A DNA stretch of 58,508 nt from Escherichia phage KarinMuster_Bas82. The translations under genes were made by a program, and so were the position numbers. Of this stretch, positions 1,773 through 58,508 are shown piece by piece. Each line of letters begins with the position of its first letter. The stretch's first letter is position 1. Location of the stretch: sequence record PQ850612.1, one strand, 5' to 3'. The notes under the pieces are model-generated. The model had not been told where the DNA came from, ran no database searches, and saw only the letters and a list, made by a program, of their open reading frames with translations.

Positions 1773-1803
1773 GGCGGGATTATTCCCGCCCGTTTTCTTT
1801 TTA
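1773..1803 (+). terminator. rho-independent terminator after terL
   Basis: GGCGGGA-tta-TCCCGCC hairpin followed by T-rich run. Confidence 0.6.
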
Positions 1804-1837
1804 ATTCTTGACAAATTACATTATAAATGTTTGTAAA
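1803..1837 (+). promoter_or_regulatory. promoter-like element, degenerate copy of conserved family
   Basis: AATTCTTGACAAATTAC with -35 TTGACA about 1808-1813; -10 not clear. Confidence 0.4.
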
Positions 1838-5392: not shown

Positions 5393-5423
5393 AGTTATTA
5401 CCCTTCGTTCATTTGATGACTAA

Positions 5424-5466
5424 AGCATAATCGCACGTTTGCAATCCGTCAAGAATTATTTTAACA
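5424..5466 (-). promoter_or_regulatory. conserved phage promoter (leftward)
   Basis: minus strand reads TTAAAATAATTCTTGACGGATTGC; -35 TTGACG, 17-bp spacer, -10 TATGCT. Confidence 0.6.
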
Positions 5467-6890: not shown

Positions 6891-6898
6891 ATGAAAAA

Positions 6899-7256: not shown

Positions 7257-7271
7257 TTAAGTTTTCTCCTG

Positions 7272-7616: not shown

Positions 7617-7646
7617 GATTATGTCCTCCTTTGTTTTGATGTTTGT

Positions 7647-7690
7647 AGGTTACACGTCCTTGTGTAATCCATCAAGAATTATTTTAAATT
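7647..7690 (-). promoter_or_regulatory. conserved phage promoter (leftward)
   Basis: TTAAAATAATTCTTGATGGATTAC; -10 TAACCT. Confidence 0.55.
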
Positions 7691-8409: not shown

Positions 8410-8735
8410 AAATACGACCCCACAATTGCTGCACAGTTGACGATCGCTAAACGCGTTGCTTTTTCACGGTCTTCTCCGTGGCTAACTGGTTGCTTATAAT
8501 TAACGCCGGTGTCAGGGTTATTAACCGTCACTTCGTTGTCACGAACATCCAGATCCATGTACATGTTAACCATCAGACTGAAAGCATCCTCATTACGTGT
8601 AAGAGGGTTCCACAGGCGACCATTACCTATATCAATACCTTCGTTTATGTAACGTTCGTCGTACGCGACGTAATATTTACCCTGGATTTCAGCAGCCTTT
8701 GCTGCGTTAACTAATAAATCACGATTGTTCATCAC
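8406..8735 (-). CDS. hypothetical protein
   Basis: 109-aa ORF, overlapping stop/start. Confidence 0.5.
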   Translation of the reverse strand: MMNNRDLLVNAAKAAEIQGKYYVAYDERYINEGIDIGNGRLWNPLTRNEDAFSLMVNMYMDLDVRDNEVTVNNPDTGVNYKQPVSHGEDREKATRLAIVNCAAIVGSYL

Positions 8736-9430: not shown

Positions 9431-9474
9431 TGTTAGTGTTACTGCTTGCAATGTGTCAAGAATTATTTTAAAAT
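9431..9474. promoter_or_regulatory. divergent promoter pair built on the conserved element
   Basis: leftward -35 TTGACA with -10 CTAACA; rightward -35 TTGCAA (9446-9451), 17-bp spacer, -10 TAAAAT. Confidence 0.55.
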
Positions 9475-9502
9475 TCTGTCAACGTTAACCAATGAGGAAC
9501 GA

Positions 9503-13402: not shown

Positions 13403-13446
13403 AAGATACCCTACCGTCTGTAATCCGTCAAGAATTATTTTAAAGA
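13403..13446 (-). promoter_or_regulatory. conserved phage promoter (leftward)
   Basis: TTTAAAATAATTCTTGACGGATTAC; -10 TATCTT. Confidence 0.6.
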
Positions 13447-13660: not shown

Positions 13661-13730
13661 TAAAAGTTGCTGCAAGTAGGAGAGGTTTAAAAGGTATAGG
13701 GAGTCGCATACTTCCCATGAATCTATACAT

Positions 13731-13769
13731 AAAATAATTCTTGACGGATTACACCGACACAACTACCCT
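13731..13769 (+). promoter_or_regulatory. conserved phage promoter (rightward)
   Basis: AAAATAATTCTTGACGGATTAC; -10 TACCCT. Confidence 0.55.
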
Positions 13770-18928: not shown

Positions 18929-19360
18929 ATGGCTAAGGCTAACGTTAATGACATAAACCGTATAACAGGTGTCTTTAAAGACATTAAAGCTGACCTGCGA
19001 GATTTTACCGATCGTGAAGTCATCCGGTATGTCCTGACGTTACGTAATATTCTTGTCAGTGAACCACCTGACGGTACACCTGTGGATACAGGCTGGGCAA
19101 GCAACAACTGGTGGTTCGATCAGGGGCAACCCGCTAATAGTCCTGATACACCAACAGGTAATGTTGAAGCCAGTAAAGCACGTATCGAACAGGATACGGT
19201 CACTATCAGCAGTATTAAAGTTAATGGTCAGGAACTGCATATTACTAACAACGTTCCTTACATTGGGGTTCTCAATGGTGGTAGCAGTACACAGACACCT
19301 TCCGGGTTTGTCGAACGTGCTATATTAAAAGCCGGAATAATGGTGAGGTTTAATCAGTGA
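18929..19360 (+). CDS. hypothetical head-tail protein
   Basis: start at MAKANV with SD GGAG. Confidence 0.45.
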   Translation: MAKANVNDINRITGVFKDIKADLRDFTDREVIRYVLTLRNILVSEPPDGTPVDTGWASNNWWFDQGQPANSPDTPTGNVEASKARIEQDTVTISSIKVNGQELHITNNVPYIGVLNGGSSTQTPSGFVERAILKAGIMVRFNQ

Positions 19361-19782
19361 TGACACTCTCAGATGTTTCAGGAATTGTTTATAATCGCGT
19401 TCTGGCGAATCTTCCCGTGGAAATTACGCCTGACAGATTTACAATCGCTTCTGGTCAACTTCCTGACGACACTACAGAAAAACCAGGTCTGATTCTGACA
19501 CACAATCCCGGTCCGTGGACAATAACCACGCTGGGTGGGGAAGGTATTTGTCGTCGTCGTTTAAGAACAGGAAACGTTTTTTTACAGGTACGTACACCTG
19601 CTCAGTATGGCATGGACACTTTGAGTATTGATATTGCGGATCGGCTTGCAAAATTATTTGAAGGTGTCTGGCAGGATCGCCCGTTAATTTACACGAGTGT
19701 TGATATTCGTCATCAGGGTCGTGATAACGCGTGGTTTTTAACGAACGTCGTACTTAGTTACGAATACGAAGAAATATATTAA
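19357..19782 (+). CDS. hypothetical tail-module protein
   Basis: 141-aa ORF. Confidence 0.45.
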   Translation: MMTLSDVSGIVYNRVLANLPVEITPDRFTIASGQLPDDTTEKPGLILTHNPGPWTITTLGGEGICRRRLRTGNVFLQVRTPAQYGMDTLSIDIADRLAKLFEGVWQDRPLIYTSVDIRHQGRDNAWFLTNVVLSYEYEEIY

Positions 19783-19818
19783 ACTACGAATGATTGCAAT
19801 CAAACGAGGCTTAGAACA

Positions 19819-21618: not shown

Positions 21619-21660
21619 AAGATACCTTAACAGGTGTAATTCGTCAAGAATTATTTTAAA
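21619..21660 (-). promoter_or_regulatory. conserved phage promoter (leftward)
   Basis: TTTAAAATAATTCTTGACGAATTAC; -10 TATCTT. Confidence 0.55.
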
Positions 21661-21724
21661 TATCTTGCGTAATTTGTACAGAACTATTACTATCTAATCG
21701 TCTACTACATAAAAGGTAAAAACC

Positions 21725-22457: not shown

Positions 22458-23354
22458 ATTTATGTAGTCGAGGATTGCAGGAGAGTATTTAAACCACTCT
22501 GTAGCACCGTCAAAGCCTTTGAGACGCGCATTAAGTTCACGGAAGACCTTGTGTACCTCTTGTTCCAGTTTGTAAGCATCAGCGCCGTGTGGAAACGGGT
22601 ATGACACGAGTTTAACCACTGGGTGTGTTGTTTCGCGTTGTAGTTGTCGTAGTCGCCGTTTTAAGTCGTTTGTGATACCGACTTTAAGCAGAGTAGGGCA
22701 CTTTTTATCGTCAGCTAACACGTAGAGTGTACCGGGTTCTGACGGGTTAAAACCTGTTTGTGAACACTGAGGACAACCATGTTTTTTATGCAAATGCATG
22801 GCTGGACGTTGTTCAAACACTCCATGCTCTGGACAGATGATTTTTATTCGAGTGAAATTGTTAATATACGCCACCAACGAATAGTCGTAACGGTCCCCAT
22901 GAACTTCGCGAGCACGAGTAATGAAATCTTCGGCGCCTAAGCGTTTTTGTTCAGACGACTGTTTACGAGCACATTGTGGGCAACCTTTCCCGTGAACATG
23001 ATTGCCCGGTGTCTGTTCAAACACACCATGTATCGGACAGATAATCTTCACAGGTGTGCACCAATTCACATACTCCACCAGCGAATAGTCATACTTGTCC
23101 CCATGAACTTCACGAGCACGAGTGATAAACTCTCCTGTGGTTAAACGTTTTTGTTCAACAGTACATTGGGTACAACCTGCTTTCATTGAAGTGTGATTGT
23201 TCGGAGTCTGTTCAAATACCCCGTGTTCGGGGCAGATAATTTTTACTTTGGTGTTAGCACCTTCATACTCCACCAGCGAATAGTCATACTTGTCACCATG
23301 AACTTCACGGGCACGCGTGATAAACTCTTCTGTGGTTAAACGTTTCCTACTCAT
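22440..23354 (-). CDS. T5orf172/GIY-YIG-like domain protein with three N-terminal repeats
   Basis: 304 aa; three ~60-aa repeats (EFITRAREVHGDKYDYSLVEY...CPxHGVFEQ...C.QC); C-terminal GTLYVLADDKK...LLKVGITNDLKRRLRQL. Confidence 0.6.
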   Translation of the reverse strand: MSRKRLTTEEFITRAREVHGDKYDYSLVEYEGANTKVKIICPEHGVFEQTPNNHTSMKAGCTQCTVEQKRLTTGEFITRAREVHGDKYDYSLVEYVNWCTPVKIICPIHGVFEQTPGNHVHGKGCPQCARKQSSEQKRLGAEDFITRAREVHGDRYDYSLVAYINNFTRIKIICPEHGVFEQRPAMHLHKKHGCPQCSQTGFNPSEPGTLYVLADDKKCPTLLKVGITNDLKRRLRQLQRETTHPVVKLVSYPFPHGADAYKLEQEVHKVFRELNARLKGFDGATEWFKYSPAILDYINEKARN

Positions 23355-23565: not shown

Positions 23566-23607
23566 AGGTTACACGTCCTTGTGTAATCCGTCAAGAATTA
23601 TTTTAAA
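23566..23607 (-). promoter_or_regulatory. conserved phage promoter (leftward)
   Basis: TTTAAAATAATTCTTGACGGATTAC; -10 TAACCT. Confidence 0.55.
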
Positions 23608-23669
23608 CGTTTGTTGCTTTTTAGACCCGTGTTAAACTGTGTATATGCTTCGTGAAAAGGTTAACCACA

Positions 23670-35129: not shown

Positions 35130-35445
35130 GGTTGTTTTCCTGCATCTGTAAGAACACAATCATTGCGGCACGGAGTGGGTTAGCGTCTTGAATCATATGA
35201 TATGGGGTACTATCACTGCCAACTTTTCTATGCGCTGCCTTCCATAATCCATTTTCTGGCGCTGGGATAATGCCAATTCTGTTCTCTACGATAATCGGCT
35301 CTGCGTCAGTCGGATTAGTGGTATATTTGAAACCACCCCGTGACCAACAACCTCGGATATCTTTATCGTCAGCATGAACACCGTAAATAACTTTCAAAAC
35401 AAGGCGATCAATATCTCTATCGTTCATCTTACTGTAATCAGTCAT
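35122..35445 (-). CDS. hypothetical protein
   Basis: 107 aa, SD GAGG. Confidence 0.5.
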   Translation of the reverse strand: MTDYSKMNDRDIDRLVLKVIYGVHADDKDIRGCWSRGGFKYTTNPTDAEPIIVENRIGIIPAPENGLWKAAHRKVGSDSTPYHMIQDANPLRAAMIVFLQMQENNHD

Positions 35446-35974
35446 GACGATTCATTCCCTCTAACATGTCCCAGATAAGCGCAACACGGCGCGGATCCGT
35501 GCTGATAGTGTGTAAAGTTTCACATCCGTAATGCCATCCCCAACGAACGGATAATTCAGACAGCAGATAACCACGGGAGTTAGCCAGTTCAGCCAGTTCA
35601 CCAGGTTTGAACGTCGTTGTATTAGGTTCTGTAAGAACACGAGTACCACAGATAGCGTCACTGATGCGCCATGGTTTCATCAGATCATCAACCTTGTACC
35701 AGTTACTGATACTGATTTCAGACGTTCCCCAGCGTGCAGCCAGTTTCAGACGTTCCTGACGGGCCGGGAACATTGGCATCTGTGGTAAACGTAGTTGGAT
35801 TTGTTCTGCAGGTTCGAACATGTCATCGTCTGTTAAACGAAATTCACCACGGTCATCAATATAAAAACCACGGGAACGACCGTCGCGGGTGAACCCGTCA
35901 ACACGGTTATAAATTTTACCGGGAGTAAAGACACCAATCGGTGAACCAGTTACGAATTTGTGTGAAGTATGCAT
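35438..35974 (-). CDS. hypothetical protein
   Basis: 178 aa, SD GAGG. Confidence 0.5.
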   Translation of the reverse strand: MHTSHKFVTGSPIGVFTPGKIYNRVDGFTRDGRSRGFYIDDRGEFRLTDDDMFEPAEQIQLRLPQMPMFPARQERLKLAARWGTSEISISNWYKVDDLMKPWRISDAICGTRVLTEPNTTTFKPGELAELANSRGYLLSELSVRWGWHYGCETLHTISTDPRRVALIWDMLEGMNRHD

Positions 35975-36013
35975 TGTTATCGCCTCAATAAGTTTTAAAT
36001 AATTCTATACGGT

Positions 36014-37870
36014 TTACCGAAGTGGTGCAACGAGTTTTTCAGCTTCTTTGATGTAAAAATCATAATTGAGCGTTGCCCGGTTAAAACGTTTCATGTCGTT
36101 GCACTCAGTGGTCAACCAACCTTTACACACTGACATGCGGCGTTCAGGCGCATCAGGGTTCAGTTTCAGTGATTTTGCCAGCGGTGGCATGACTTTTGTC
36201 AACGGTGCACCATCTGTACTGACGTAATAACGGGTAATGTTTTGAACCTGTTTATCACCCCATAGTAATTTGCTGTTACGCGGTACTTTCGTCACCAACA
36301 TAAAATCGTGAATGTCTTCGTGTGATGTTATAAAATCACGAATGTCTTTATTGTGTACCAGTGCTGCTTCAGCCGCTTTTGCGACAACCTGCATGCTGTG
36401 GTTTTGATGCCAACCCAGATCAACGCTGTGACAATAAGCGCCTTTACGTTTAACTTTCTTACCGCCTTCATAAACAGCGATGTAATTATTTACATCGCGG
36501 ATAAACATCACGTCATAAATCGCTTCTTCAAGCTGGAGTTTAGTTAATTTTTCCCACGCGTGACGAACCTGTTCTACTTGTCCGGTAAATACTCGTGGTA
36601 CGTAAACTGTAAGACCATCTGTGTTAGCCTGGATCATGGATAAACCAGGGATTTTCAGAAGTTCTTCAGCCAACATGCACAAAAGTAACTGTCCGTTAAT
36701 CGTAATAGCCATTGTATAAGCAGGATCGTAGAATGGGCTGTATACGTTATTACTGTCACCATACACACCGTTTAACGCCAGTTTTAACATTGCGTTTTCT
36801 GGTGTACCTTTCGGGTAACTGGAACGCATGTCATAAACATTTTTATAAATGGTGCAAAATTGTTTACCCAGATGTGCCGGATAAAGTTCATTACTGATCG
36901 CAAGGTTCGGGTAAAAACTGGCAACGTCCAGATCGATGATCACATAATTTTCAGTGGATCTTATAGTTTGAGATTCAATAGACCCGTGGATACCACCCGT
37001 ACCAAAATCAAACGAGAACCCGTTAATGTCTGCACTTAAATCTGTAAATACACCTTTTGTTTCAGTGATGACCTGCTGACGTAACCAGTTAAGAACACGA
37101 TTAAATTCAGGCTGTTCAAAACGGACATAAGGGAAAATCACGCTGTTTAATGCGATTGATAGTCTGTGCGTCTGTCGTGGTTTTCTACTACCCGGTTCGA
37201 AACATTGAATACCTGATTTTTCAAGTTCCATGATGAAATAGTCTTTACCGATTTTCGTGTCATTATGGTTCATGAAATTACGACCGTATTTAGCAGAAAG
37301 TTCACGACGAAAATCGATCAGCTTTTTACTGTGTTTATAAAACATCAAAGTCGCTTTTAAATCGTGTATCAGATATTGACGAAGCGTATCAATTTGAGAA
37401 TCGGTTAAGTAAGTCCCTGGCGTAAATGGGAGGTCTTCAATGTTTTCCATTCTCATATTGAATTCAAGTGTTTTCAGACTTGTTCGTTTTGCCTGATTGT
37501 CGAAATGATGAATTTTATACAAATCAAGCTGGGGGACTATCCAGTCTTTTTCCCACACCATATGAGCAAAACGATTTTCATCACCGGCGTTAATTATCGA
37601 ATCGCCTTTTTTGTAAATGTCTGCGTTGGTGATATACATGATGTTGTTCAAAATAGAATGCTGAACAGGATAGTCGTAACCCAGATTGTTATAACCAACT
37701 TCTTCAGCACGATGTTCACGCAAATATTCCGTGAAGAAGTAAAAAGCCTGACGATCATCGCGACGATGTGAAATCTCAAAAATATAAGGCGTTTCAGTTA
37801 ACGCGTGAATAGCACCGAACAGGAAAACATTAGGATAGTTTTCAATATCATGAACGTAAGCATCTAACAT
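36014..37870 (-). CDS. DNA polymerase, compact family-B-like
   Basis: 618 aa; Exo I-like VHDIEN, motif A-like DLDVASFYPNL, motif B-like KLALNGVYG, motif C-like ANTDG. Confidence 0.65.
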   Translation of the reverse strand: MLDAYVHDIENYPNVFLFGAIHALTETPYIFEISHRRDDRQAFYFFTEYLREHRAEEVGYNNLGYDYPVQHSILNNIMYITNADIYKKGDSIINAGDENRFAHMVWEKDWIVPQLDLYKIHHFDNQAKRTSLKTLEFNMRMENIEDLPFTPGTYLTDSQIDTLRQYLIHDLKATLMFYKHSKKLIDFRRELSAKYGRNFMNHNDTKIGKDYFIMELEKSGIQCFEPGSRKPRQTHRLSIALNSVIFPYVRFEQPEFNRVLNWLRQQVITETKGVFTDLSADINGFSFDFGTGGIHGSIESQTIRSTENYVIIDLDVASFYPNLAISNELYPAHLGKQFCTIYKNVYDMRSSYPKGTPENAMLKLALNGVYGDSNNVYSPFYDPAYTMAITINGQLLLCMLAEELLKIPGLSMIQANTDGLTVYVPRVFTGQVEQVRHAWEKLTKLQLEEAIYDVMFIRDVNNYIAVYEGGKKVKRKGAYCHSVDLGWHQNHSMQVVAKAAEAALVHNKDIRDFITSHEDIHDFMLVTKVPRNSKLLWGDKQVQNITRYYVSTDGAPLTKVMPPLAKSLKLNPDAPERRMSVCKGWLTTECNDMKRFNRATLNYDFYIKEAEKLVAPLR

Positions 37871-37950
37871 AATAAAATCCTGATAAGTAAATGGGGCACT
37901 ATGGCCCCATGTCTGTTTAAAGCGGTATGTTGTCCCAGTTCCAGTAACTA

Positions 37951-38997: not shown

Positions 38998-40143
38998 TTA
39001 AAGTGGACGTGCGCCAGTCGGCATCGTCACGGGTTTATTAAAAACAGATTCTGCCAGTGTGCTGTGACCTTTACGCGGGTCACTGTCAGGTACTAAAACT
39101 GGCTGACCTTCTGGTTTTGTCGTACACATGTCAACAAGTGCCGGAGGCAGTGATTTTTCCAGTGTTGACAACGGTTTTAATTTACGTTCGTACAATGTTT
39201 CAGGGTTTACACCAAACATGGGTGCAGCACCGATCAGTTTTCCTTCGTCCGTAAGCTGACGTCGGGTTTGCTTTGTTGCAAGTTTAAAACCCGGTAAAGC
39301 CTTACCCATGCGAACAAAATGTAACCCCTGAGTATGTAACGCTGTTTTTGCTTCAGAAGAACGTGTATACAATTCTTCAAGAAGTGCCAGACGACGCGCT
39401 ACTTCTTCTGGCGTAAGTGATGGTGGTGCATCAAGAACAGTAGCCAATTCTAAAACCCTCTCATACATCGCCGGACACATACCACGCGCCGGACAGTAAT
39501 GACAATGACTACCAACATTTAACGGTGCGTCTGGTTTATGTGCTTCGTTAAACCCGTGTTTAAATCGTTCAGCCCATTCCATCAATGTTGCCCGGTTAAA
39601 CTCCCATCGTCTTACAGGTCCGAGTGGGTGATAAGCCCGTGGCTGAACAATTGTGAACACAACACGCTTAACGGTGTCGATGCAACGTTGGTCCAGTGCG
39701 TAATAGACCCCCTGTGAGTTATCAACTGCTTCAACTGCGACATGACCGTATTTATAATCCCATACGTAAAGCGTATCAGTATTAAAGTCATACCAGCAAT
39801 AATCACAGGTTCCATACTGACCGGGTAACAACCAGTCAATGTAAATGCGAACTTCTGAAAACAGCGGATCGAGTTTCGCACCAACTGAAAGAACATCTGT
39901 TATAAAGTCATCCGCGTAAACATGCATGTCTTCAGTAACCTGAACACCGTTAGGAGCAAGACACGGCATTAATGGCGGTTTGCCTTTAATCTTCTGTTCT
40001 AACACCCAGTGTCCGGCTGTACCTTCTTCAGCACTGGGTGATGATGGTTCTACATAATCAATCCGCTGTGACAGTTGAACGCTACCCGGACAAGCTAACC
40101 AACGTTTTGATCCACTGGCACTAAAGGTAGCGTGACTGGTCAT
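38998..40143 (-). CDS. PD-(D/E)XK exonuclease, Cas4/DUF2800-like
   Basis: 381 aa; N-terminal SGSKRWLACPGS and C-terminal Cys cluster CHYCPARGMCPA. Confidence 0.6.
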   Translation of the reverse strand: MTSHATFSASGSKRWLACPGSVQLSQRIDYVEPSSPSAEEGTAGHWVLEQKIKGKPPLMPCLAPNGVQVTEDMHVYADDFITDVLSVGAKLDPLFSEVRIYIDWLLPGQYGTCDYCWYDFNTDTLYVWDYKYGHVAVEAVDNSQGVYYALDQRCIDTVKRVVFTIVQPRAYHPLGPVRRWEFNRATLMEWAERFKHGFNEAHKPDAPLNVGSHCHYCPARGMCPAMYERVLELATVLDAPPSLTPEEVARRLALLEELYTRSSEAKTALHTQGLHFVRMGKALPGFKLATKQTRRQLTDEGKLIGAAPMFGVNPETLYERKLKPLSTLEKSLPPALVDMCTTKPEGQPVLVPDSDPRKGHSTLAESVFNKPVTMPTGARPL

Positions 40144-40913
40144 CAGAATGCCCCACCCATTTGTTTAACAGATTCAGCCTGACCAACAATGTTTTCAGCA
40201 TCAGCCGGGGCCGCGTTAATGCGTTCAATCAGTTCGATGATAGATTTCAGTTTTACTGGGTCGTCAATCTGCATCACGTTCTGAGTTTCATACAGTCCCA
40301 TGATTCGCTGACTTAATGGCGCAGCACGGTCACCCGTAATTTGTCCAAACATCTGCATCAGTGCTGACTGAAGAACCTGTGTGTTATAAACTTTAGCCGG
40401 ATCCGTGGTTACAGGTTGCTCGACAGGCGCGACTGGTGCAGCCGGTGCTGCTGGTACAACTGGAGCTACCGGAGCGGCAGGAACCGCTGGAGCAGGATCA
40501 ACAGGTGCTACATAACCCGGTGCAAGTTCTGCAGGTCCGGTATAACGCCCTGCTTCAACTGCTTCAGCAATAAGTTCACGTTTAACACCGTCAACAAACG
40601 CTTCATCCAGTTTTTTCTTTTGACGCCACAGACCATCACCTTTGTTCAGGGATTTACTGTCAGTGTGGATACGTGGATCGTGGCGCAAACCCCATTTGTC
40701 GAACTCTTCAGTGCTGGTTTCGTTATCGTCAACATCTTCAGTTGGTGCAGATACAACAGGCAGTGATTCAGCAACGACAGTCACGGTTTCTTTAGTGATA
40801 CCATCACCCTGAGCAGTCATGAGTGGTGCAGCACCAGTCGCAATCGCTGCTGCCAGATTGTTGATCGCAGTTTCCAGACCCGGAGCAGTTACAAGTAATT
40901 TAACTTCGAACAT
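40143..40913 (-). CDS. hypothetical protein with Pro/Ala/Val-rich linker
   Basis: 256 aa, SD GAGGAA, first gene after tandem promoters. Confidence 0.5.
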   Translation of the reverse strand: MFEVKLLVTAPGLETAINNLAAAIATGAAPLMTAQGDGITKETVTVVAESLPVVSAPTEDVDDNETSTEEFDKWGLRHDPRIHTDSKSLNKGDGLWRQKKKLDEAFVDGVKRELIAEAVEAGRYTGPAELAPGYVAPVDPAPAVPAAPVAPVVPAAPAAPVAPVEQPVTTDPAKVYNTQVLQSALMQMFGQITGDRAAPLSQRIMGLYETQNVMQIDDPVKLKSIIELIERINAAPADAENIVGQAESVKQMGGAF

Positions 40914-40944
40914 TACGTTTTCCTCTTGTTGTTTGGTTGTCGCT

Positions 40945-40987
40945 AACTTTAAAAGGTATTGTGTAATCTGTCAAGAATTATTTTACA
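40945..40987 (-). promoter_or_regulatory. conserved phage promoter (leftward)
   Basis: AAAATAATTCTTGACAGATTAC; -10 TAAAGT. Confidence 0.55.
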
Positions 40988-41007
40988 CTCGCCTTTCGTT
41001 GATGCAG

Positions 41008-41051
41008 ATGTTAGAGGAATAAGTTGCAATACGTCAAGAACTATTTTAAAC
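41008..41051. promoter_or_regulatory. divergent promoter pair built on a variant element
   Basis: leftward TTGACG with -10 CTAACA; rightward TTGCAA (41023-41028), 17-bp spacer, TAAACT. Confidence 0.5.
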
Positions 41052-41083
41052 TTTTTTCACGATTCGATATTACAGGGTAGAAA

Positions 41084-42745
41084 ATGAAAGCTCGTTATTA
41101 TCAGACTGAAGCTGTCAATAACGTATGTCAGGCGTGGTCAAGCGGTGCTGACGACGTGATTCTTGTGCTTCCCACGGGGGCAGGAAAAACGTTCTGTATG
41201 TCTGAACTGGTAAAAACAAGAGACGGTGTAAAAGTCATCCAGGCACACCGTAAAGAACTGGTTAGTCAAATCGCAATGGCTGTTGCTCGCCAGGGATTAC
41301 CACACAGATTTATAGCGCAAAAAGATACTGTTAAGTTTGCAACTAATCAGCAGATGAAAACGCTTGGTTACAGTACCTATTCCCCCGGTGCTGACATCGT
41401 TATTACCAGTTCACAAACGTTAAGAACAAAACAGTACGAACGATGGTACAACGACGTGTCTCTTGTATTCAGCGACGAAGCGCATCACCTGGTGCGTGGC
41501 ACACAGTGGGGAGACTGCCGGGAAAAATTCCCTAACGCTAAAGGTCTGGGTGTTACAGCTACACCGATCCGTGCTGACGGTAAAGGCTTAGGTCGTCATG
41601 CGTCAGGTTACGCAGATCAGATGATCATTGGTCCGTCAATGCGTGAGTTAATCAGTCAACAACATCTGGCTGATTATCGTCTGATTATGGCTGAAACAGA
41701 CCTGGAATTAACTGCAGAAATGATTTCCCATACCACGGGTGATTACAAACCTTCTGCGTTAAAAAAAGCGATGGAAGATTCAAACATTGTTGGTGATACC
41801 GTTAGCACGTGGAAAACGTATGCAGATGGTTTACTCACTGTTGTGTTTACGTGTGATGTGGATTCTGCTGAAGCACTGGCACAAGAATTTCGCGATGCGG
41901 GTATTCCAGCAGAGGCGATCAGCTCACGAAACAGCAATCAGGAACGAGCGGATATCCTGGAACGTTTTGAACGACGTAAAACACTCGTGCTGTGTAACAA
42001 CGATTTATTCGGTGAAGGATACGACTGTCCTGCAATGGAATGTGCTGTAATGGACCGTCCAACAGAATCTTACTCTTTGTTTGTACAACAGATGGGTCGT
42101 CCGTTGCGTTTCAAACCGGGTAAAAAAGCACTGATTATTGATAAAGTCGGTAATGTTCGTCGATTTCTGGCCCGTGGTTTTCCACTTCCCGATCAGCATT
42201 ACAACTGGTCTTTAGACGACCGTGACCGTCGTTCATCAAACAGCAGTGGGAACAGTAACACAACATGTACAAACAAGGGTGATCCTGATAACGGTATTCC
42301 ACCGTGTCTGAAGCCTTATCCGTCTGGTCTTCCGTGCTGTCCGTATTGTGGTCATGTTCCTGAAAAAGTCGAACGCTCAGGCCCGGATCGTGTAGAAGGT
42401 AATTTACGTGAATTGACACCTGAAGAACTGGAAGAATTACGCCGGGCAGTTGTGATAATCGACCGTGATCCTGTTGCGGTAAAAGAACAAATGTTGAACG
42501 CTGGTGCACCCCCTGTTGCCGCTTACAGTGCAATGAAAAACATTCAGGCAATGAACGATGCACAGCGTAAGTTACGCGGCATGATTACCACATGGGCCGG
42601 TATTCAGCGTGACAAAGGTATACCCGTTGATGACGCTTACAAGATGTTTTACAGGGTGTTTGGTGTTGATGTGCTCAGTGCTCAGGGATTACGCACTCAT
42701 GAAGCTAATGAACTCGCTGCAAGGGTTGCAAGTTCATTAATCTGA
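41084..42745 (+). CDS. SF2 DEAD/DEAH-type helicase
   Basis: 553 aa; Walker A LPTGAGKT, Walker B FSDEAHH. Confidence 0.8.
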   Translation: MKARYYQTEAVNNVCQAWSSGADDVILVLPTGAGKTFCMSELVKTRDGVKVIQAHRKELVSQIAMAVARQGLPHRFIAQKDTVKFATNQQMKTLGYSTYSPGADIVITSSQTLRTKQYERWYNDVSLVFSDEAHHLVRGTQWGDCREKFPNAKGLGVTATPIRADGKGLGRHASGYADQMIIGPSMRELISQQHLADYRLIMAETDLELTAEMISHTTGDYKPSALKKAMEDSNIVGDTVSTWKTYADGLLTVVFTCDVDSAEALAQEFRDAGIPAEAISSRNSNQERADILERFERRKTLVLCNNDLFGEGYDCPAMECAVMDRPTESYSLFVQQMGRPLRFKPGKKALIIDKVGNVRRFLARGFPLPDQHYNWSLDDRDRRSSNSSGNSNTTCTNKGDPDNGIPPCLKPYPSGLPCCPYCGHVPEKVERSGPDRVEGNLRELTPEELEELRRAVVIIDRDPVAVKEQMLNAGAPPVAAYSAMKNIQAMNDAQRKLRGMITTWAGIQRDKGIPVDDAYKMFYRVFGVDVLSAQGLRTHEANELAARVASSLI

Positions 42746-42786
42746 TGGTAATCTGCATAGAAATATTTTAAACGTAAGGAACTGTA

Positions 42787-43293
42787 ATGCGTGATTTGAT
42801 GGTTGACATTGAAACGTGTGGTACTAAACCGGGTTGTGCAGTGCTGTCAATTGGCGCTGTTTACTTTGACCGTCAGGGTAATATTGGTGAAACGTTTTAC
42901 GCATCAATGGGTTTTAATGCACTTGCTTATGGTCACACAGACCCTGACACTATGAAGTGGTGGTCGCAGCAGTCAGAACAAGCACAAAAAGATGCTTTTG
43001 GTGGTACTGCTGATCCTGTTCAGGTTGCTAAAGATTTTGCCAAATTCATCTGGCACGATGCTAAACCGTGGGGCAATGGTTCCACATTCGATATCACTAT
43101 TCTGGAAGCATGGTTTAATGCGATTGGTGTTCGTTGCCCGTGGAAGTTCTGGAACGTCCGTGATGTTCGTACCGCTGTTGATTTGCTGGGTATTAACCCG
43201 AAAGAATTTACCCGTGACGGTACTTACCACAATGCGTTAGACGACTGTTTACACCAGATTAAATATCTTACTAACGGGACTAAAACATTATGA
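42787..43293 (+). CDS. DnaQ-like 3'-5' exonuclease
   Basis: 168 aa; VDIETCG and YHNALDD motifs. Confidence 0.7.
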   Translation: MRDLMVDIETCGTKPGCAVLSIGAVYFDRQGNIGETFYASMGFNALAYGHTDPDTMKWWSQQSEQAQKDAFGGTADPVQVAKDFAKFIWHDAKPWGNGSTFDITILEAWFNAIGVRCPWKFWNVRDVRTAVDLLGINPKEFTRDGTYHNALDDCLHQIKYLTNGTKTL

Positions 43294-43781
43294 CAACGCT
43301 TGAACAATGGGCGATTCGTCACGGTGTTAGTCAGATGGCGTTGTACGAGTTATACGCGCTTTATCAGCCTGACGGAACACCACACGAAGACGGTGTAAGT
43401 GAAAGCGCCACCAGTAAAGAGTGTGAACTGATTGCGGCACGTGCAGGGCAACGTATCTGGCGTAATAACTCAGGTGCTCTGAAAAACGAAAAAGGAATGA
43501 TGGTTCGTTATGGTCTTGGCAATACCAGTGCGAAAATTAACGCTGTTATGAAGTCAAGCGACTACATCGGCATTAAAACCAAAATCGTTACACCGGATAT
43601 GATCGGTTCGAAAGTGGGTGTCTTTATTGCTGCCGAAATGAAACGCCCTGACTGGCACATGATCCCCAGTGATAAACGTGCACAAGCACAGGCCACTTTC
43701 GGTGCGATTGTTGAAAACGCAGGTGGTGAATTTCGTTTCATCACTCATCCTTCACAATTTGAAAAATGGATTAAACAATGA
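43290..43781 (+). CDS. VRR-NUC-like nuclease (putative)
   Basis: 163 aa; SDYIGI ... FIAAEMK resembles PD-(D/E)XK core. Confidence 0.45.
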   Translation: MTTLEQWAIRHGVSQMALYELYALYQPDGTPHEDGVSESATSKECELIAARAGQRIWRNNSGALKNEKGMMVRYGLGNTSAKINAVMKSSDYIGIKTKIVTPDMIGSKVGVFIAAEMKRPDWHMIPSDKRAQAQATFGAIVENAGGEFRFITHPSQFEKWIKQ

Positions 43782-43951
43782 ATACTGAACGCATTGAACG
43801 TCTACAAAAACTGATTGATAACCACGGTATTGAAGCTGTTGCTAAACGTCTGAACGTTACTGAAATTCATGTTAAACGTAATCTGCTTACCGGGCGATCT
43901 GCTATCAACCTGGTCAAACTGATGGCTGCTGAACGTCAGTTCGGAGCGTAA
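43778..43951 (+). CDS. small hypothetical protein
   Basis: 57-aa ORF with overlapping start; below ORF-track cutoff. Confidence 0.4.
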   Translation: MNTERIERLQKLIDNHGIEAVAKRLNVTEIHVKRNLLTGRSAINLVKLMAAERQFGA

Positions 43952-43954
43952 ATT

Positions 43955-46309
43955 ATGAAAGGGTTACTGAACCGTAAACAGTGGGTCATGTGGCGACTTG
44001 AGACAGTTGCCGATCGTCCAAAACCAACGAAAGTACCATACAGTCCAGTACACGGTTACAAAGCCAGTACCACTAACCCTAACGACTGGTCTGACTATCA
44101 CACCGCGTTAGGTATGGCGCAAATGTACGGTATGTCTGGTGTTGGTTTTGTATTCACAGAAAACGATCCGTACTTCTTTATTGATGTCGATAACTGTCTG
44201 GTAGATCAGGCAACAGCCACATGGTCACCACTGGCGCATGAATTCGTAAACCGTTTTCCAAATGCGTACACCGAAGTAAGCCAGTCAGGAACAGGTTTGC
44301 ACATCATCTGTGCTTATACCAGCATACCGGAAGGTTTTAACAGTCTGAACGACCAGAAAACCGGGCTGGAAATGTACTGGCGTGATCGTTTCGTCGCGAT
44401 GACGCTCACGGGTAATGGTGATGTTGATATTGATTATACCCAGGGCATTCATGATTCTATTGCCCGGTATGGTCGTATCCGTTCAGACCGTTCCGCACGC
44501 TGGACAACAGCACCCTGTGATGACTGGTCAGGACCGACAGACGACGATGAACTGATTAAAATGGCGTTAAATTCGTCCAGTGCTGCTTCAGTATTTGGCA
44601 ATAAAGCGTCATTTGCGGATCTGTGGAATGCAAACGTTGAACGCCTGTCTGTGTCATATCCTAGTGACCAGGGGAAAGACTACAACGCATCAGCAGCAGA
44701 TGCTGCCCTGTGTTCACACCTTGCGTTCTGGACCGGGAAAGATTGCGAACGTATTGAACGATTGTTTAACCGTTCCGGGCTGGTTCGTGGTAAATGGACA
44801 GATCGTCAGGACTACCGTGAAAACACAATTCTGGGCGCTGTGGAACGTTGTGATACGGTTTATCGTAGTCAACCGACGCTGACACCAGAACTGATGAAAG
44901 CAGTCACACCAGCGCCTACCGTCGTTCCTAATGGTGGAACACCTGCGTATATGAGTGTGAAACCCGGTGAAGGTGCATATGGTTCAAACCACACGGTTAA
45001 CGCATCCACGTTCGTTAATAACTATTATCCGAACAACACATTGATTTTCGTCCAGCAACAGCCGTACCGGTTCAACGGTCGCGTGTGGGAACGTGTGAGT
45101 GAAGATGAACTGAAACATCAGATATCTATGGCAATGCTCGCCAGCGAACCAAAAGCTGACGTAATTAACGGTACGTACAAGGTTTTGTCGTATTTATTCA
45201 CACGCGCTGATCGTGAGCTTGGAACATGGCCAGGTGTTGATGTGTCACACTACATTGTATGTCAGAACGGGATACTGGATGTACACACGGGTAAATGTGA
45301 TGCACATAACCCGGATTTCTTTACGACCAGTATTTTACCGTATAGCTACGATCCGTTTGCCCGTGCGCCAGCATTTGAACAGTTTTTAAATACAACTCTG
45401 GAAGGTGATCAGGAACGTATTGCACTGTTGCAGGAATGGCTGGGTTACATGCTTGTCAACTCATATGACTATCAGAAAGCGATGCTGTTGATTGGTGCAC
45501 CACGTTCCGGTAAAGGTACGATTGGTCGCATCATTCAGGCACTGGTAGGTGATGAAGCGTATGCAGGGGTCACACTGGAGGGTTTAGCTAGTGATGCGGT
45601 ACTTGAAACTGTGTTGGATAAATCTGTGCTGTTTATTGGTGATGCTCACAGTGTGTCCGGGCCTGATCGCAACCGAATTCTGGACCGTTTCAAATCTATT
45701 ACAGGTTGTGATGCGATTCCGGTTAATCGTAAATATAAAGGTGCATGGAACGGTCGTTTACCGGGACGTATGACACTGGCTGCTAACAACATTCCGGCAT
45801 TTGCTGATGATTCAGGTGCAATGGCTAACCGTTTGCTGATCCTGCCATTCAACATTTCGTTCCTGGGTCGTGAAGATACCACTCTGGAAGCACGACTGAT
45901 GAAAGAACTACCGGGGATCTGTAACTGGGCGATTGAAGGTTTACAACGGTTACGTGCTAACGGACGGTTTACTGAACCAAAAGCAAGTCTGGAAGAACGT
46001 CAGGAAATTATGGATCAACAATCACCACTTAGAAGTTTTATCAGAGATTGTTGCGAATTGGTATCTGATGGTGAGGTGCACACTGAAGAACTCTATGGTC
46101 GTTATCGTCTCTGGAAAACACAGGAAGGTGGTCCAGCAATGACTAAAACTGCATTTAGTCGGGCATTTAAATCCACCCTTCGTGGTAAAGTGAAAAAAGA
46201 CGTCGTTAATATAAATAACGTTCGACTAAACGGTTTCAGGGGTATTCGTCTTCTCCCTTTTCAGTCAACAGCTAATGTAGTGCCTTTCCCACCTGCGAGT
46301 AACGGTTAG
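43955..46309 (+). CDS. DNA primase (prim-pol N-domain plus P4-type ATPase domain)
   Basis: 784 aa; FFIDVDNC and Walker A GAPRSGKGT. Confidence 0.75.
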   Translation: MKGLLNRKQWVMWRLETVADRPKPTKVPYSPVHGYKASTTNPNDWSDYHTALGMAQMYGMSGVGFVFTENDPYFFIDVDNCLVDQATATWSPLAHEFVNRFPNAYTEVSQSGTGLHIICAYTSIPEGFNSLNDQKTGLEMYWRDRFVAMTLTGNGDVDIDYTQGIHDSIARYGRIRSDRSARWTTAPCDDWSGPTDDDELIKMALNSSSAASVFGNKASFADLWNANVERLSVSYPSDQGKDYNASAADAALCSHLAFWTGKDCERIERLFNRSGLVRGKWTDRQDYRENTILGAVERCDTVYRSQPTLTPELMKAVTPAPTVVPNGGTPAYMSVKPGEGAYGSNHTVNASTFVNNYYPNNTLIFVQQQPYRFNGRVWERVSEDELKHQISMAMLASEPKADVINGTYKVLSYLFTRADRELGTWPGVDVSHYIVCQNGILDVHTGKCDAHNPDFFTTSILPYSYDPFARAPAFEQFLNTTLEGDQERIALLQEWLGYMLVNSYDYQKAMLLIGAPRSGKGTIGRIIQALVGDEAYAGVTLEGLASDAVLETVLDKSVLFIGDAHSVSGPDRNRILDRFKSITGCDAIPVNRKYKGAWNGRLPGRMTLAANNIPAFADDSGAMANRLLILPFNISFLGREDTTLEARLMKELPGICNWAIEGLQRLRANGRFTEPKASLEERQEIMDQQSPLRSFIRDCCELVSDGEVHTEELYGRYRLWKTQEGGPAMTKTAFSRAFKSTLRGKVKKDVVNINNVRLNGFRGIRLLPFQSTANVVPFPPASNG

Positions 46310-46328
46310 TCATTGCACAAGGATGTGT

Positions 46329-46368
46329 AAAATAATTCTTGACGAATTACAGAGGTGTGCGCTATAGT
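46329..46368 (+). promoter_or_regulatory. conserved phage promoter (rightward)
   Basis: AAAATAATTCTTGACGAATTAC; 18-bp spacer; -10 TATAGT. Confidence 0.6.
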
Positions 46369-47709: not shown

Positions 47710-48101
47710 TAATCGTCGTCACAGGTGGTCGTGACTTCAACGACAGAGTAGCAGTATTTTCCGCGTTAGGACTACTTCACAAACAATTCCCCATTACCGA
47801 ACTAATTGAAGGTGGTGCGTCAGGTGTTGATAACCTGTGTAAGCAATGGGCGCAGTTACACAGTATTCCTGTGCGTAGTTGCCCGGCAGCGTGGGACGAT
47901 CTGACTGTACCTGGTGCGGTTGTAAAACAGGGCAAGCACGGGCCTTATAACGCTGTTGCAGGTCATCAACGTAATCAGGCGATGTTAGAGGGTGAGCCAC
48001 GCCCTACATATGGTGTTGTGTTCCCCGGTGGGCGTGGTACTGCTGATATGCATCGTCGCATGTTGAAAGCTGGTTTAACTGTGTGGGTTCCATATCCTTA
48101 A
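47706..48101 (+). CDS. SLOG-type Rossmann protein (DprA/Smf- or DUF2493-like)
   Basis: 131 aa; VVTGGRDF and EGGASGVD motifs. Confidence 0.45.
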   Translation: MIIVVTGGRDFNDRVAVFSALGLLHKQFPITELIEGGASGVDNLCKQWAQLHSIPVRSCPAAWDDLTVPGAVVKQGKHGPYNAVAGHQRNQAMLEGEPRPTYGVVFPGGRGTADMHRRMLKAGLTVWVPYP

Positions 48102-48137
48102 AATAATTCTTGACAGATTACCAACCATCCCCGATAA
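48101..48137 (+). promoter_or_regulatory. conserved phage promoter (rightward)
   Basis: AAAATAATTCTTGACAGATTAC; 17-bp spacer; -10 GATAAT. Confidence 0.65.
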
Positions 48138-54777: not shown

Positions 54778-54824
54778 AATTTACACATCCTTGTGCAATC
54801 CGTCAAGAATTATTTTAAATAAAA
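54778..54824 (-). promoter_or_regulatory. conserved phage promoter (leftward)
   Basis: TTTAAAATAATTCTTGACGGATTGC; -10 TAAATT. Confidence 0.55.
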
Positions 54825-54843
54825 CCCCGGTTAGTTCCGGGGT
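54824..54843 (-). terminator. terminator hairpin
   Basis: CCCCGG-aactaa-CCGGGG then TTTTATTT on minus strand; same loop as the 22433 hairpin. Confidence 0.5.
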
Positions 54844-54851
54844 AATGTTCA

Positions 54852-56630: not shown

Positions 56631-56674
56631 AGTCTATCTGATAATGTGTAAGCCGTCAAGAATTATTTTAAACC
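56631..56674 (-). promoter_or_regulatory. conserved phage promoter (leftward)
   Basis: TTTAAAATAATTCTTGACGGCTTAC; -10 TAGACT. Confidence 0.55.
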
Positions 56675-58403: not shown

Positions 58404-58447
58404 ATTCTAGTTGTTCATCTGTAATCTGTCAAGAATTATTTTAAACC
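58404..58447 (-). promoter_or_regulatory. conserved phage promoter (leftward)
   Basis: TTTAAAATAATTCTTGACAGATTAC; -10 TAGAAT. Confidence 0.6.
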
Positions 58448-58508
58448 TCTGTTACCACACGTCACCCGTGGTAAACTGTACAGAACAGTTACAAACGGGT
58501 CGATAACC

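What the first reader, a model, noticed from the sequence alone, without database searches (positions are those of the whole stretch)
42750..42786. Degenerate copy of the conserved promoter element between helicase and exonuclease genes
GTAATCTGCATAGAAATATTTTAAAC resembles the conserved GTAATCTGTCAAGAATTATTTTAAAC but has lost the -35 hexamer; a second weak relic lies near 35990-36010. These look like decayed promoters, or the retained A/T tract may serve the rightward gene.
Basis: seen in the sequence. Interest (0 to 1): 0.25.

Follow-up and report, generated by a model that had tools for sequence, protein, structure and literature searches.

The report
Conserved, disabled promoter copy in phage
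A backwards copy of this phage family's standard promoter lies between the helicase and exonuclease genes; it can no longer act as that promoter, yet every relative examined keeps it almost unchanged, most likely because its other strand is the leader of the next gene, an ordinary case of regulatory DNA being re-used.

Summary
The string is at 42748-42773 (2 bases left of the stated start) and matches the 26-bp repeat at 22/26 positions. About 1e-4 such matches are expected by chance. The window is a 9NA-like siphophage (Sashavirus/Nonanavirus) with 15 intact copies. Read on the opposite strand, each intact copy is an A/T tract, then TTGAC(G/A), then GATTAC, then a TAnnnT -10, followed by a ribosome site and a start codon.

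The copy in question reads TATGCA where the -35 should be, has no -10, and points antisense into the helicase gene. The second relic is at 35992-36017.

It is not decaying. In 12 genomes from several genera, 24 of 28 columns are invariant, against 26% of third codon positions (p = 7e-10). No relative has an intact copy at this site. Two phages that lost the exonuclease gene kept the relic and its ribosome site, now in front of the next gene.

Best reading (0.45): a disabled promoter copy kept as the sense-strand leader and translation-initiation region. It may also hold an internal extended -10 promoter, TTGCAA-N17-TGgTAATCT. Rival readings: a regulator binding site, a shifted antisense promoter, a recombination junction, or neutral decay. 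Mapping RNA 5' ends would decide.

The parts
42748..42773 (-). Relic 1: a -35-less copy of the 26-bp promoter element. In promoter orientation (- strand) it reads GTTTAAAATATTTCTATGCAGATTAC and would point antisense into the helicase gene.
   Evidence: 22/26 match to the consensus, with about 1e-4 expected by chance. No -10 at the family's spacing.
42754..42759 (-). Remnant of the -35 hexamer: TATGCA here, TAAACA in the 9NA clade, TTGAC(G/A) in intact copies.
   Evidence: Two of the four variable columns within 42746-42773 fall here.
42746..42754 (+). TGGTAATCT, invariant in all relatives. It is a candidate extended -10 (TGnTAnnnT) of a sense-strand internal promoter. Its reverse complement also gives TACCAT, a possible -10 for a shifted antisense promoter.
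   Evidence: Not enriched in the genome as a motif.
42726..42731 (+). TTGCAA inside the end of the helicase gene: candidate -35, 17 bases upstream of TAATCT.
   Evidence: My own approximate sigma70 matrix scores the pair 8.25, the 99.93rd percentile of all positions. TTGC and the 17-base spacing are kept in all clades.
42760..42786 (+). Sense-strand leader of the exonuclease gene: A/U-rich tract GAAATATTTTAAA, ribosome site TAAGGA (42775-42780), and a 6-7 base spacer before the ATG.
   Evidence: Tract and ribosome site are invariant and the spacer is variable. The RNA is unstructured. The leader is kept in front of the next gene in phages that lack the exonuclease gene.
41084..42745 (+). SF2 helicase gene. 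Its stop codon TGA (42743-42745) is followed in frame by TAA and TAG inside the relic.
   Evidence: sequence.
42787..43293 (+). DEDDh 3'-5' exonuclease gene, absent from phages PJ16 and BDX09P1.
35992..36017 (+). Relic 2. In promoter orientation (+ strand) it reads GTTTTAAATAATTCTATACGGTTTAC and would point antisense into the DNA polymerase gene. Its - strand is the leader of ORF 35438-35974. The polymerase stop codon TAA lies inside it.
   Evidence: 21/26 match. Identical in 9NA. 37/39 columns of the gap are invariant in 8 genomes.
40963..40988 (-). Nearest intact copy: leftward promoter TTGACA-N17-TAAAGT for ORF 40143-40913.
   Evidence: A computed promoter annotation covers this stretch on that strand in phage AVIO78A.
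41026..41051 (-). Intact copy: leftward TTGACG-N18-TAACAT. Its + strand also reads TTGCAA-N17-TAAACT, the only good candidate promoter for the helicase operon.
46325..46350 (+). Intact copy firing rightward, directly after the primase gene. It marks the end of the helicase-primase operon.
1794..1819 (+). Intact copy with a divergent A/T tract, firing rightward.
5441..5466 (-). Intact copy firing leftward.
7664..7689 (-). Intact copy firing leftward.
9448..9473 (-). Intact copy firing leftward. Its + strand reads TTGCAA-N17-TAAAAT.
   Evidence: + strand read.
13420..13445 (-). Intact copy firing leftward.
13727..13752 (+). Intact copy firing rightward into the head-gene block.
21636..21661 (-). 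Intact copy firing leftward.
23583..23608 (-). Intact copy firing leftward.
48096..48121 (+). Intact copy firing rightward.
54795..54820 (-). Intact copy firing leftward, directly after a terminator hairpin (54825-54842).
56648..56673 (-). Intact copy firing leftward.
58421..58446 (-).

Best explanation
Relic 1 is an ancient copy of the clade's standard sigma70-type promoter (A/T tract, TTGAC, GATTAC, then a -10) that sits backwards in the 41-base gap between the helicase and exonuclease genes. It has been switched off: the critical TTG of the -35 is gone and there is no -10. It has since been kept under purifying selection because its other strand is part of the rightward mRNA. There it supplies the unstructured, A/U-rich untranslated leader directly upstream of the ribosome site TAAGGA, forming the translation-initiation region of the first gene after the helicase. 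It may also supply an internal extended -10 promoter.

Shown here: membership of the repeat family, loss of the -35 and -10, conservation at the same site in relatives, lack of RNA structure, and retention of the leader when the exonuclease gene is deleted.

Inferred, not shown: that the constraint acts through translation or expression of the downstream gene, and that the copy arose when a leftward small-gene cassette was gained or lost.
For: 1. Family membership: 22/26 match, chance expectation about 1e-4.
2. Dead as the family's promoter: -35 reads TATGCA, there is no TAnnnT at 16-18 bases, and the strict scan finds nothing on either strand, though it does find the two intact copies nearby.
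3. Purifying selection: 24/28 columns are invariant in 12 genomes, against 61/238 third codon positions (Fisher p = 7e-10). This equals the rate at first and second codon positions. The adjacent spacer between ribosome site and ATG varies at 7/7 positions. The same holds for relic 2: 37/39 invariant against 33%, p = 4e-14.
4. No ORF covers either relic.
5. Geometry is the same at both relics: stop codon, relic on the sense strand, ribosome site, then ATG 13 or 17 bases after the relic. These are two of the three sizeable gaps in otherwise overlapping operons; the third is 37871-37950.
6. The sense RNA is no more structured than shuffles (z = +0.4 and +1.3), as expected for an open initiation region.
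7. Conserved leaders are common in this clade. Identity of the 40 bases upstream of genes, window versus 9NA, has a median of 0.78 against 0.64 at third codon positions. It is 0.79 for the exonuclease and 0.93 for the gene after relic 2.
8. Phages PJ16 and BDX09P1 lack the exonuclease ORF through a clean ATG-to-ATG deletion, yet keep relic, ribosome site and spacer, now in front of the next gene.
9. Where 9NA carries a leftward cassette plus a -35-less copy before the major tail gene, this window has only a fragment, AGAAATATATTAAAC. This fits an origin by cassette gain or loss.
Against: 1. A generic A/U-rich enhancer should tolerate A/U swaps, but the sequence is conserved base by base. GGTAATCTG, which is not A/U-rich, is invariant too.
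2. The relic still matches the family consensus at nearly every position outside the -35. This would be explained more simply by a reader shared with the intact promoters.
3. No expression data exist for any 9NA-like phage in the papers I could search.
4. The alignment covers only three or four deep clades, so the number of independent comparisons is small.
5. Conservation shows there is a function. It does not show which strand or which molecule (DNA or RNA) carries it.
Confidence: 0.45

Rival explanations
1. Internal sense-strand promoter. The relic has been turned round, so that its GTAATC block, preceded by TG, serves as an extended -10 (TGgTAATCT). Its -35 would be TTGCAA, 17 bases upstream inside the end of the helicase gene. 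Transcripts would start near 42761 and boost the exonuclease-to-primase genes. At relic 2 the equivalent is TTGCAC-N17-TAGAAT. This reading is compatible with the leader explanation.
For: My approximate sigma70 matrix scores these sites 8.25 and 9.05, the 99.93rd and 99.96th percentiles of all positions. Intact copies score 5.4-14.2. TTGC and the 17-base spacing hold in all clades, as TTGCAA, TTGCAG, TTGCCA or TTGCGC. The bases ATGG just left of the family block are invariant at relic 1, although the bases before GTAAT differ among the intact copies of this window. At the orthologous intact promoter 40963 the GTAATCT part itself differs between clades (GCAATGT in the 9NA clade). The two variable bases in the -35 remnant would fall in the discriminator, which is normally free to vary. 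Promoters on the written strand clearly overlap intact copies at divergent junctions: TTGCAA-N17-TAAAAT at 9448, TAAACT at 41026, and TATGAT in 9NA.
Against: The strict consensus scan does not call either site. The two relics would use different parts of the element as their -10, so the model does not explain why the whole element is conserved at both. Several antisense candidates nearby also score above the 99.7th percentile, so A/T-rich gaps inflate such scores. One near-identical contig (L027) has TGGAAT at relic 2, which would destroy that -10. TGGTAAWCT is not significantly enriched.
Confidence: 0.2
2. Binding site for a protein that recognises the common promoter element. This would be a phage-encoded or host regulator whose contacts lie in the flanks (GTAATC and AGAAnTATTTTAAA) rather than in the -35. 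At intact copies it would switch promoters on or off. At the -35-less copies it would bind without any promoter being present, for example as a roadblock, a decoy, or an activator of the neighbouring rightward gene. This resembles protein p4 at the divergent early and late promoters of phage phi29 (recalled from the literature, not tested here).
For: The 15 intact copies share far more sequence than RNA polymerase needs, including ATT(A/G)C in the spacer. The relics keep those family-conserved flanks and have changed mainly in the TTG read by sigma. All -35-less forms share the same first change, TTGAC to TA.... The same consensus is kept in 9NA.
Against: No candidate regulator was identified or tested. 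The flanks are short and each relic has a change in one of them (GAAATA; GTAAAC, TTTAAAA). The GTAATC part varies between orthologous intact promoters, so it is not uniformly constrained. The extra similarity among intact copies could simply reflect recent spread of promoter cassettes.
Confidence: 0.15
3. Still a leftward (antisense) promoter, shifted by 9 bases. It would use TTTAAA in the A/T tract as -35 and TACCAT (the complement of the invariant ATGGTA) as -10, making an antisense RNA against the 3' end of the helicase message.
For: TTTAAA-N16-TACCAT scores 6.51, the 99.71st percentile, and is built entirely from invariant bases.
Against: The score is below all but one of the intact copies. 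The strict scan does not call it. The corresponding site at relic 2 (TACCGA) lacks the essential final T. Selection appears to have removed, not kept, the strong -35.
Confidence: 0.05
4. Neutral, decaying relic with no function.
For: It has lost both promoter hexamers, and the two bases in the -35 remnant do vary between clades.
Against: 24/28 columns are invariant across 12 genomes of several genera, against 26% at third codon positions, and the neighbouring spacer is saturated with changes. Relic 2 is 26/26 identical to 9NA. The conserved block is only about 28 bases long, with variable flanks, so it is not a recent recombination tract.
Confidence: 0.03
5. Conserved junction used for recombination between phages. 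On this view the sequence is kept because module exchange at gene boundaries repeatedly restores it, not because it acts in gene expression.
For: The junction is a site of gene-content change: the exonuclease gene is present or absent immediately next to it. The genomes are described as mosaic (PMC4153490).
Against: The exonuclease deletion has its end points at the two ATGs, not in the relic. A block of 28 bases is below the usual length needed for efficient homologous recombination (general knowledge, not tested here). Codon third positions differ within a few bases on both sides of the block.
Confidence: 0.05

Closest known systems
Strong sigma70 promoters with an A/T-rich UP element, such as E. 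coli rrnB P1 and the early promoters of phages T5 and T7 (from general knowledge)
   Same: The intact copies have an A/T tract immediately upstream of a near-consensus -35, a spacer of 17-18 bases, a TAnnnT -10 and a short leader with a ribosome site. The relic is a sequence relative of these copies.
   Different: The relic has neither the -35 TTG nor a -10 and faces the wrong way for any gene. It cannot be filed as a promoter of this kind.
A/U-rich translational enhancers upstream of ribosome sites, which bind ribosomal protein S1 (for example the phage T7 gene 10 leader; from general knowledge)
   Same: On the sense strand there is an unstructured A/U-rich tract (AUAGAAAUAUUUUAAAC) directly 5' of the ribosome site of a gene that is not translationally coupled to the gene before it.
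   Different: Conservation is base by base and extends to GGUAAUCUG, which is more than a composition-based enhancer needs. No effect on translation has been measured.
Internal extended -10 promoters (TGnTAnnnT) within operons
   Same: TGgTAATCT with TTGCAA 17 bases upstream, conserved in spacing across clades.
   Different: The hexamer matches only 3/6, the strict scan does not call it, and there are no transcript data.
Regulator sites at divergent early and late promoters, as for protein p4 at A2b/A2c/A3 of phage phi29 (from general knowledge)
   Same: Compact A/T-rich elements sit where leftward early genes meet rightward genes. Some elements carry promoters on both strands. The -35-less versions lie next to rightward genes.
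   Different: No p4-like protein or binding has been shown. The genes beside relics 1 and 2 are replication genes, not late genes.

Membership tests
26-bp promoter repeat of 9NA-like phages (consensus in promoter orientation: GTTTAAAATAATTCTTGACGGATTAC) | Sequence match to the 26-mer well beyond chance | tested here: met
   22/26 match. Expected matches at <=4 mismatches: about 1e-4 per window.
26-bp promoter repeat of 9NA-like phages (consensus in promoter orientation: GTTTAAAATAATTCTTGACGGATTAC) | -35 hexamer TTGAC(G/A) (TTGATG in the copy at 7664) | tested here: not met
   TATGCA here and TAAACA in the 9NA clade.
26-bp promoter repeat of 9NA-like phages (consensus in promoter orientation: GTTTAAAATAATTCTTGACGGATTAC) | A TAnnnT -10, 17-18 bases after the -35 | tested here: not met
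   TGAACT at 17 bases. No site called by the strict scan.
26-bp promoter repeat of 9NA-like phages (consensus in promoter orientation: GTTTAAAATAATTCTTGACGGATTAC) | Points into a gene on the same strand, with ribosome site and start codon about 40-65 bases after the element | tested here: not met
   It points antisense into the helicase ORF 41084-42745.
Sigma70 promoter on the sense (+) strand | -35-like and -10-like hexamers at 16-18 bases | tested here: inconclusive
   TTGCAA-N17-TGgTAATCT scores in the 99.93rd percentile with my matrix but fails the strict scan.
Sigma70 promoter on the sense (+) strand | A primary transcript 5' end 6-8 bases after the -10 | not testable with these tools
   No transcript data for any 9NA-like phage were found.
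A/U-rich leader / translation-initiation region | A/U-rich tract within about 20 bases 5' of a ribosome site, on the mRNA strand, in a non-overlapping gene junction | tested here: met
   GAAATATTTTAAAC is followed 1 base later by TAAGGA, with the ATG 6 bases after that. The gap is 41 bases.
A/U-rich leader / translation-initiation region | Little secondary structure around the start | tested here: met
   z = +0.40 at relic 1 and +1.33 at relic 2 against shuffles.
A/U-rich leader / translation-initiation region | Measured effect on translation of the downstream gene | not testable with these tools
   Needs reporter fusions.
Structured RNA element | Stable or covarying fold, or a match to an Rfam family | tested here: not met
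   No fold better than shuffles on either strand. No Rfam match in the whole window.
Operator for a DNA-binding regulator | Specific protein binding to the element | not testable with these tools
   Only indirect support: the family-conserved flanks are retained.

The most novel reading that the evidence does not exclude
The -35-less copies are not just leaders. They would be conserved binding sites for a regulator that reads the flanks shared by all 15 promoters. The same protein would then control the leftward small-gene promoters and, at promoter-less sites, act on neighbouring rightward genes. Those sites are the two relics here, a third in 9NA before the major tail gene, and perhaps the GTAAACTGTACAGAAC look-alikes before the terminase and tail-chaperone genes. 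This would be a phi29 p4-like switch in an unstudied phage group.
Probability: 0.15. Interest if true: 0.55.

Novelty: new member of a known kind. Interest (0 to 1): 0.3.

Why it matters
For annotation, the site should not be called a promoter, and it should not be dismissed as junk either. It is a conserved regulatory piece of the helicase-primase operon in a phage group whose gene expression has not been studied (PMC4153490).

More generally it is a clear natural example of a promoter copy that was disarmed at the bases sigma reads and then kept for another job on the other strand.

The repeat family gives a ready map for experiments: 15 near-identical promoters, some apparently two-way, plus a few conserved promoter-less copies. 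These phages are used in Salmonella, E. coli and Klebsiella biocontrol work. If a common regulator exists, these sites are where to look for it.

Tried and rejected
- Chance resemblance: rejected, since about 1e-4 matches are expected.
- Hidden small ORF explaining the conservation: none on either strand.
- Structured RNA: no fold better than shuffles on either strand and no Rfam match.
- Canonical promoter on either strand at relic 1: none by the strict scan. At relic 2 there is only a chance-level + strand hit.
- An intact copy at this site in some relative: searched isolates, IMG/VR by protein and by DNA pattern and metagenomes. Every 9NA-like sequence has the -35-less form.
- More distant phages with helicase-exonuclease synteny (Proteus Isfahan, Morganella Henu15) have no element there. 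Cronobacter JC01 has a different neighbourhood. The ancestral state therefore cannot be read.
- Recent recombination tract: rejected, because the conserved block is only about 28 bases long with variable codon third positions on both sides.
- TGGTAAWCT as a recurring promoter motif: 4 copies against 1.3 expected, not significant.
- Literature: no held paper contains the motif strings. The 9NA genome note and the AVIO78A and BASEL papers say nothing about these repeats. The main comparative paper on 9NA-like phages (Zeng et al. 2019, PMC6819911) is not held, so I cannot say whether the repeat family was described there.
- It was replaced by an exact calculation and simple shuffles.

Full report
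**What the window is.** The region 40800-44000 is 97% identical to Salmonella phages Sergei, Solent and Sasha and to E. coli phage AVIO78A. It is about 77% identical to Salmonella phage 9NA and several Klebsiella phages. The window is therefore a 9NA-like siphophage (Sashavirus/Nonanavirus).

**The observation.** The quoted string lies at 42748-42773, two bases left of the stated start.
- The consensus is a real repeat: 11 copies at <=3 mismatches against 0 expected, and 14 exact copies of the core AAGAATTATTTTA.
- A wider scan finds 15 copies with an intact hexamer plus two degenerate ones: this one, and one at 35992-36017 written on the - strand.
- About 1e-4 matches are expected by chance at <=4 mismatches and about 1.3e-3 at <=5. 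No match at <=5 mismatches appeared in 200 shuffles.
- Both relics are therefore true members of the family.

**What the repeat is.** Read on the opposite strand, every intact copy is GTTTAAAATAATTC-TTGAC(G/A)-GATTAC(A). This is followed after 17-18 bases by TAnnnT. In 14 of the 15 copies a ribosome site and ATG follow within the 70 bases shown.
- The strict consensus scan calls the two copies near the helicase gene on that strand.
- My own approximate sigma70 matrix puts 14 of the 15 copies above the 99.8th percentile.
- AVIO78A carries computed promoter annotations over the stretches holding three of them, on that strand.
- Each copy points into ORFs on its own strand.
- So the repeat is an A/T tract plus a -35 plus a conserved start of the spacer. 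There is no experimental evidence for any copy.

**Why relic 1 cannot be that promoter.** In promoter orientation it reads GTTTAAAATATTTC-TATGCA-GATTAC. The TTG is gone, the hexamer at 17 bases is TGAACT, and transcription would run antisense into the helicase gene. The strict scan finds nothing there on either strand.

**It is not decaying.** I aligned the junction from isolates (AVIO78A, FSL SP-062, 9NA, Carvaje, phi_KPN_H2, Kpn BU9) and from IMG/VR contigs. I also checked metagenome contigs and a direct pattern scan.
- Every 9NA-like sequence has the element at the same place and always without the -35: GCATAG in the Sasha clade, and GTTTAG in 9NA, the Klebsiella phages and contig L016.
- In a 12-genome alignment the bases TGGTAATCTG, TAGAA, TATTTTAAA and TAAGG are invariant. 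The 7-base spacer before the ATG varies at every position, and the flanking genes show the usual third-position changes.
- In numbers, 24/28 columns are invariant, against 61/238 third positions (p = 7e-10) and 370/475 first and second positions.
- Relic 2 is 26/26 identical in 9NA. In 8 genomes 37/39 columns of its gap are invariant, against 33% of third positions (p = 4e-14).
- No ORF covers either relic.
- The conserved block is too short, and its flanks too variable, to be a recent recombination tract.
- More distant phages with the same gene order (Proteus Isfahan, Morganella Henu15) have no such element. The relic is therefore specific to the 9NA-like clade, and its intact ancestor, if there was one, is not preserved.

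**Shared anatomy of the two relics.** Both lie in a stop-to-start gap of a replication operon: helicase to exonuclease, and polymerase to ORF 35438-35974.
- The written strand of each is the mRNA strand, and the ATG comes 13 and 17 bases after the element.
- These are two of the three sizeable gaps in operons whose other junctions overlap or are only a few bases apart. The third, 37871-37950, holds a hairpin.
- All -35-less forms share the same first change, TTGAC to TA..., which reads TAGAA on the mRNA strand.
- 9NA has a third such copy before its major tail gene, next to a leftward cassette that this window lacks. At the equivalent place the window has only AGAAATATATTAAAC. This fits an origin of the relics in the gain and loss of leftward small-gene cassettes, each of which carries one of these promoters.

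**What the constraint might be.**
- RNA structure is excluded: the folds are no better than shuffles on either strand, and there is no Rfam match.
- The sense RNA is open and A/U-rich right up to the ribosome site, which is what a translation-initiation region looks like.
- Conserved leaders are common in this clade. Identity of the 40 bases upstream of genes, window versus 9NA, ranges from 0.49 to 0.95 (median 0.78), against a median of 0.64 at third positions. The two relic-bearing leaders score 0.79 and 0.93.
- The strongest single piece of evidence comes from phages PJ16 and BDX09P1. They have lost the exonuclease ORF through a clean ATG-to-ATG deletion, yet keep relic, ribosome site and spacer unchanged, now serving the next gene.
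- I therefore favour a sense-strand expression signal (confidence 0.45).

**A compatible refinement: an internal promoter.** TTGCAA (42726-42731), 17 bases, then TGgTAATCT scores in the 99.93rd percentile. TTGCAC-N17-TAGAAT at relic 2 scores in the 99.96th. The spacing is kept in all clades.
- The invariance of ATGG, just outside the family block, fits an extended -10. So does the contrast with the orthologous intact promoter at 40963, whose GTAATCT part differs between clades.
- Against it: the strict scan does not call these sites, the two relics would use different registers, nearby antisense candidates also score high, and contig L027 has TGGAAT at relic 2.

**Other rivals.**
- A regulator that reads the family's flanks would explain why the relic still looks so much like the consensus, but nothing here tests it.
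- A shifted antisense promoter (TTTAAA-N16-TACCAT) is possible but weak.
- A recombination-junction role is unlikely: the exonuclease deletion has its end points at the two ATGs, not in the relic.
- Neutral decay is contradicted by the conservation.

**Comparison with what is known, and novelty.** The intact copies behave like strong sigma70 promoters with UP-like tracts. The relic fails three of the four features that define the family, so it is a relative by descent and not a working member. As a leader it resembles A/U-rich enhancers, but it is conserved more tightly than those require.
- I could not find any description of the repeat or of these sites. The main comparative paper on the clade is not held.
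- I rate it a new member of a known kind: a disabled promoter copy re-used as an intercistronic leader.

Noticed in passing
window 9446-9479, 41024-41057, 5439-5472; 9NA record KJ802832 43176-43209 (L010): At divergent gene junctions the element also carries a promoter on the other (written) strand. Where GTAAT is GCAAT preceded by TT, it reads TTGCAA-N17-TAAAAT (9448 copy), TAAACT (41026 copy, the only good candidate for the helicase operon) or TAACAC (5441 copy). In 9NA it reads TTGCAA-N17-TATGAT. The repeat seems to be a compact two-way promoter at some sites.
   Followed up: partly
window 58471-58495 and 21669-21693; L010 4032-4056 and 24451-24475: Further -35-less look-alikes: GTAAACTGTACAGAACAGTTACAAA (13 bases before the terminase ATG at window position 1) and GTAATTTGTACAGAACTATTAC (before the tail-chaperone gene). 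Each lies 24 or 7 bases beyond an intact copy. They are partly palindromic (CTGTACAG; GTAAACTG...CAGTTAC) and their GTAA...TGTACAGAAC core is conserved in 9NA. The terminase copy matches relic 2 at 20/27. Their relation to the family is not statistically secure (9 mismatches to the consensus).
   Followed up: partly
L010 (9NA) 22595-22619; window 19765-19784: 9NA has a third TAGAAT-type relic (GCAACGTGTATAGAATTATTTCATA) between the leftward gene gp46 and the major tail gene. The window lacks gp46 and has only AGAAATATATTAAAC, overlapping the stop codon of ORF 19357-19782. The leader GATTGCAATCAAACGAGGCTTA before the major tail gene is identical in both phages.
   Followed up: partly
L123 (PJ16, OQ955832) 3229-3272; L124 (BDX09P1, OZ035775) about 2247-2290: Two Sashavirus genomes lack the exonuclease gene through a clean deletion from its ATG to the ATG of the next gene. 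The exonuclease is therefore dispensable in this group. PJ16 also has a much longer helicase ORF (2679 bases), annotated as a type I restriction-modification protein.
   Followed up: partly
window-wide: The 8-mer TAAAC(C/T)GT occurs 20 times on both strands, against 5.2 expected (sd 2.3). Most copies are inside genes, but it also occurs just before the portal, tape-measure, terminase and 35438-35974 genes. Cause unknown.
   Followed up: no
window 42743-42760 and 36002-36016: The upstream ORF's stop codon is followed in frame by further stops inside the relic: TGA-TGG-TAA-TCT-GCA-TAG after the helicase, and TAA-ACC-GTA-TAG after the polymerase. The element is in the same reading register at both sites. 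This may be coincidence (a 1 in 3 chance).
   Followed up: no
L027 (IMGVR_UViG_3300045988_029198), position equivalent to window 36006: One contig that is 99% identical in the neighbouring gene has TGGAAT instead of TAGAAT in relic 2. It is the only change inside relic 2 among the 8 genomes. It could be real variation or an assembly error.
   Followed up: no
window 37891-37910 (- strand): The 80-base gap before the DNA polymerase gene holds a G+C-rich hairpin (ATGGGGCCATAGTGCCCCAT), annotated as a terminator in AVIO78A. It holds no copy of the repeat and no obvious promoter, so it is unclear how the polymerase gene is transcribed beyond this hairpin.
   Followed up: no
window 54795-54845: A terminator hairpin (CCCCGG ttagtt CCGGGG, 54825-54842) with its T-run runs directly into the A/T tract of an intact leftward promoter. 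This is a back-to-back terminator-promoter unit.
   Followed up: no
L001 (AVIO78A, MZ726797) 3245-8470: In the AVIO78A record the product names are shifted by one gene. The helicase homologue is labelled exonuclease, the exonuclease homologue hypothetical, a 57-aa ORF DNA primase, and the primase homologue hypothetical.
   Followed up: no
whole window: The window starts exactly at the terminase ATG, and its end joins its start sensibly (promoter, look-alike element, then ATG). It is probably a complete, circularly permuted genome. Its size matches the roughly 58.5 kb reported for the E. coli Nonanavirus KarinMuster (Bas82) in PMC11990801. I did not test that identity.
   Followed up: no
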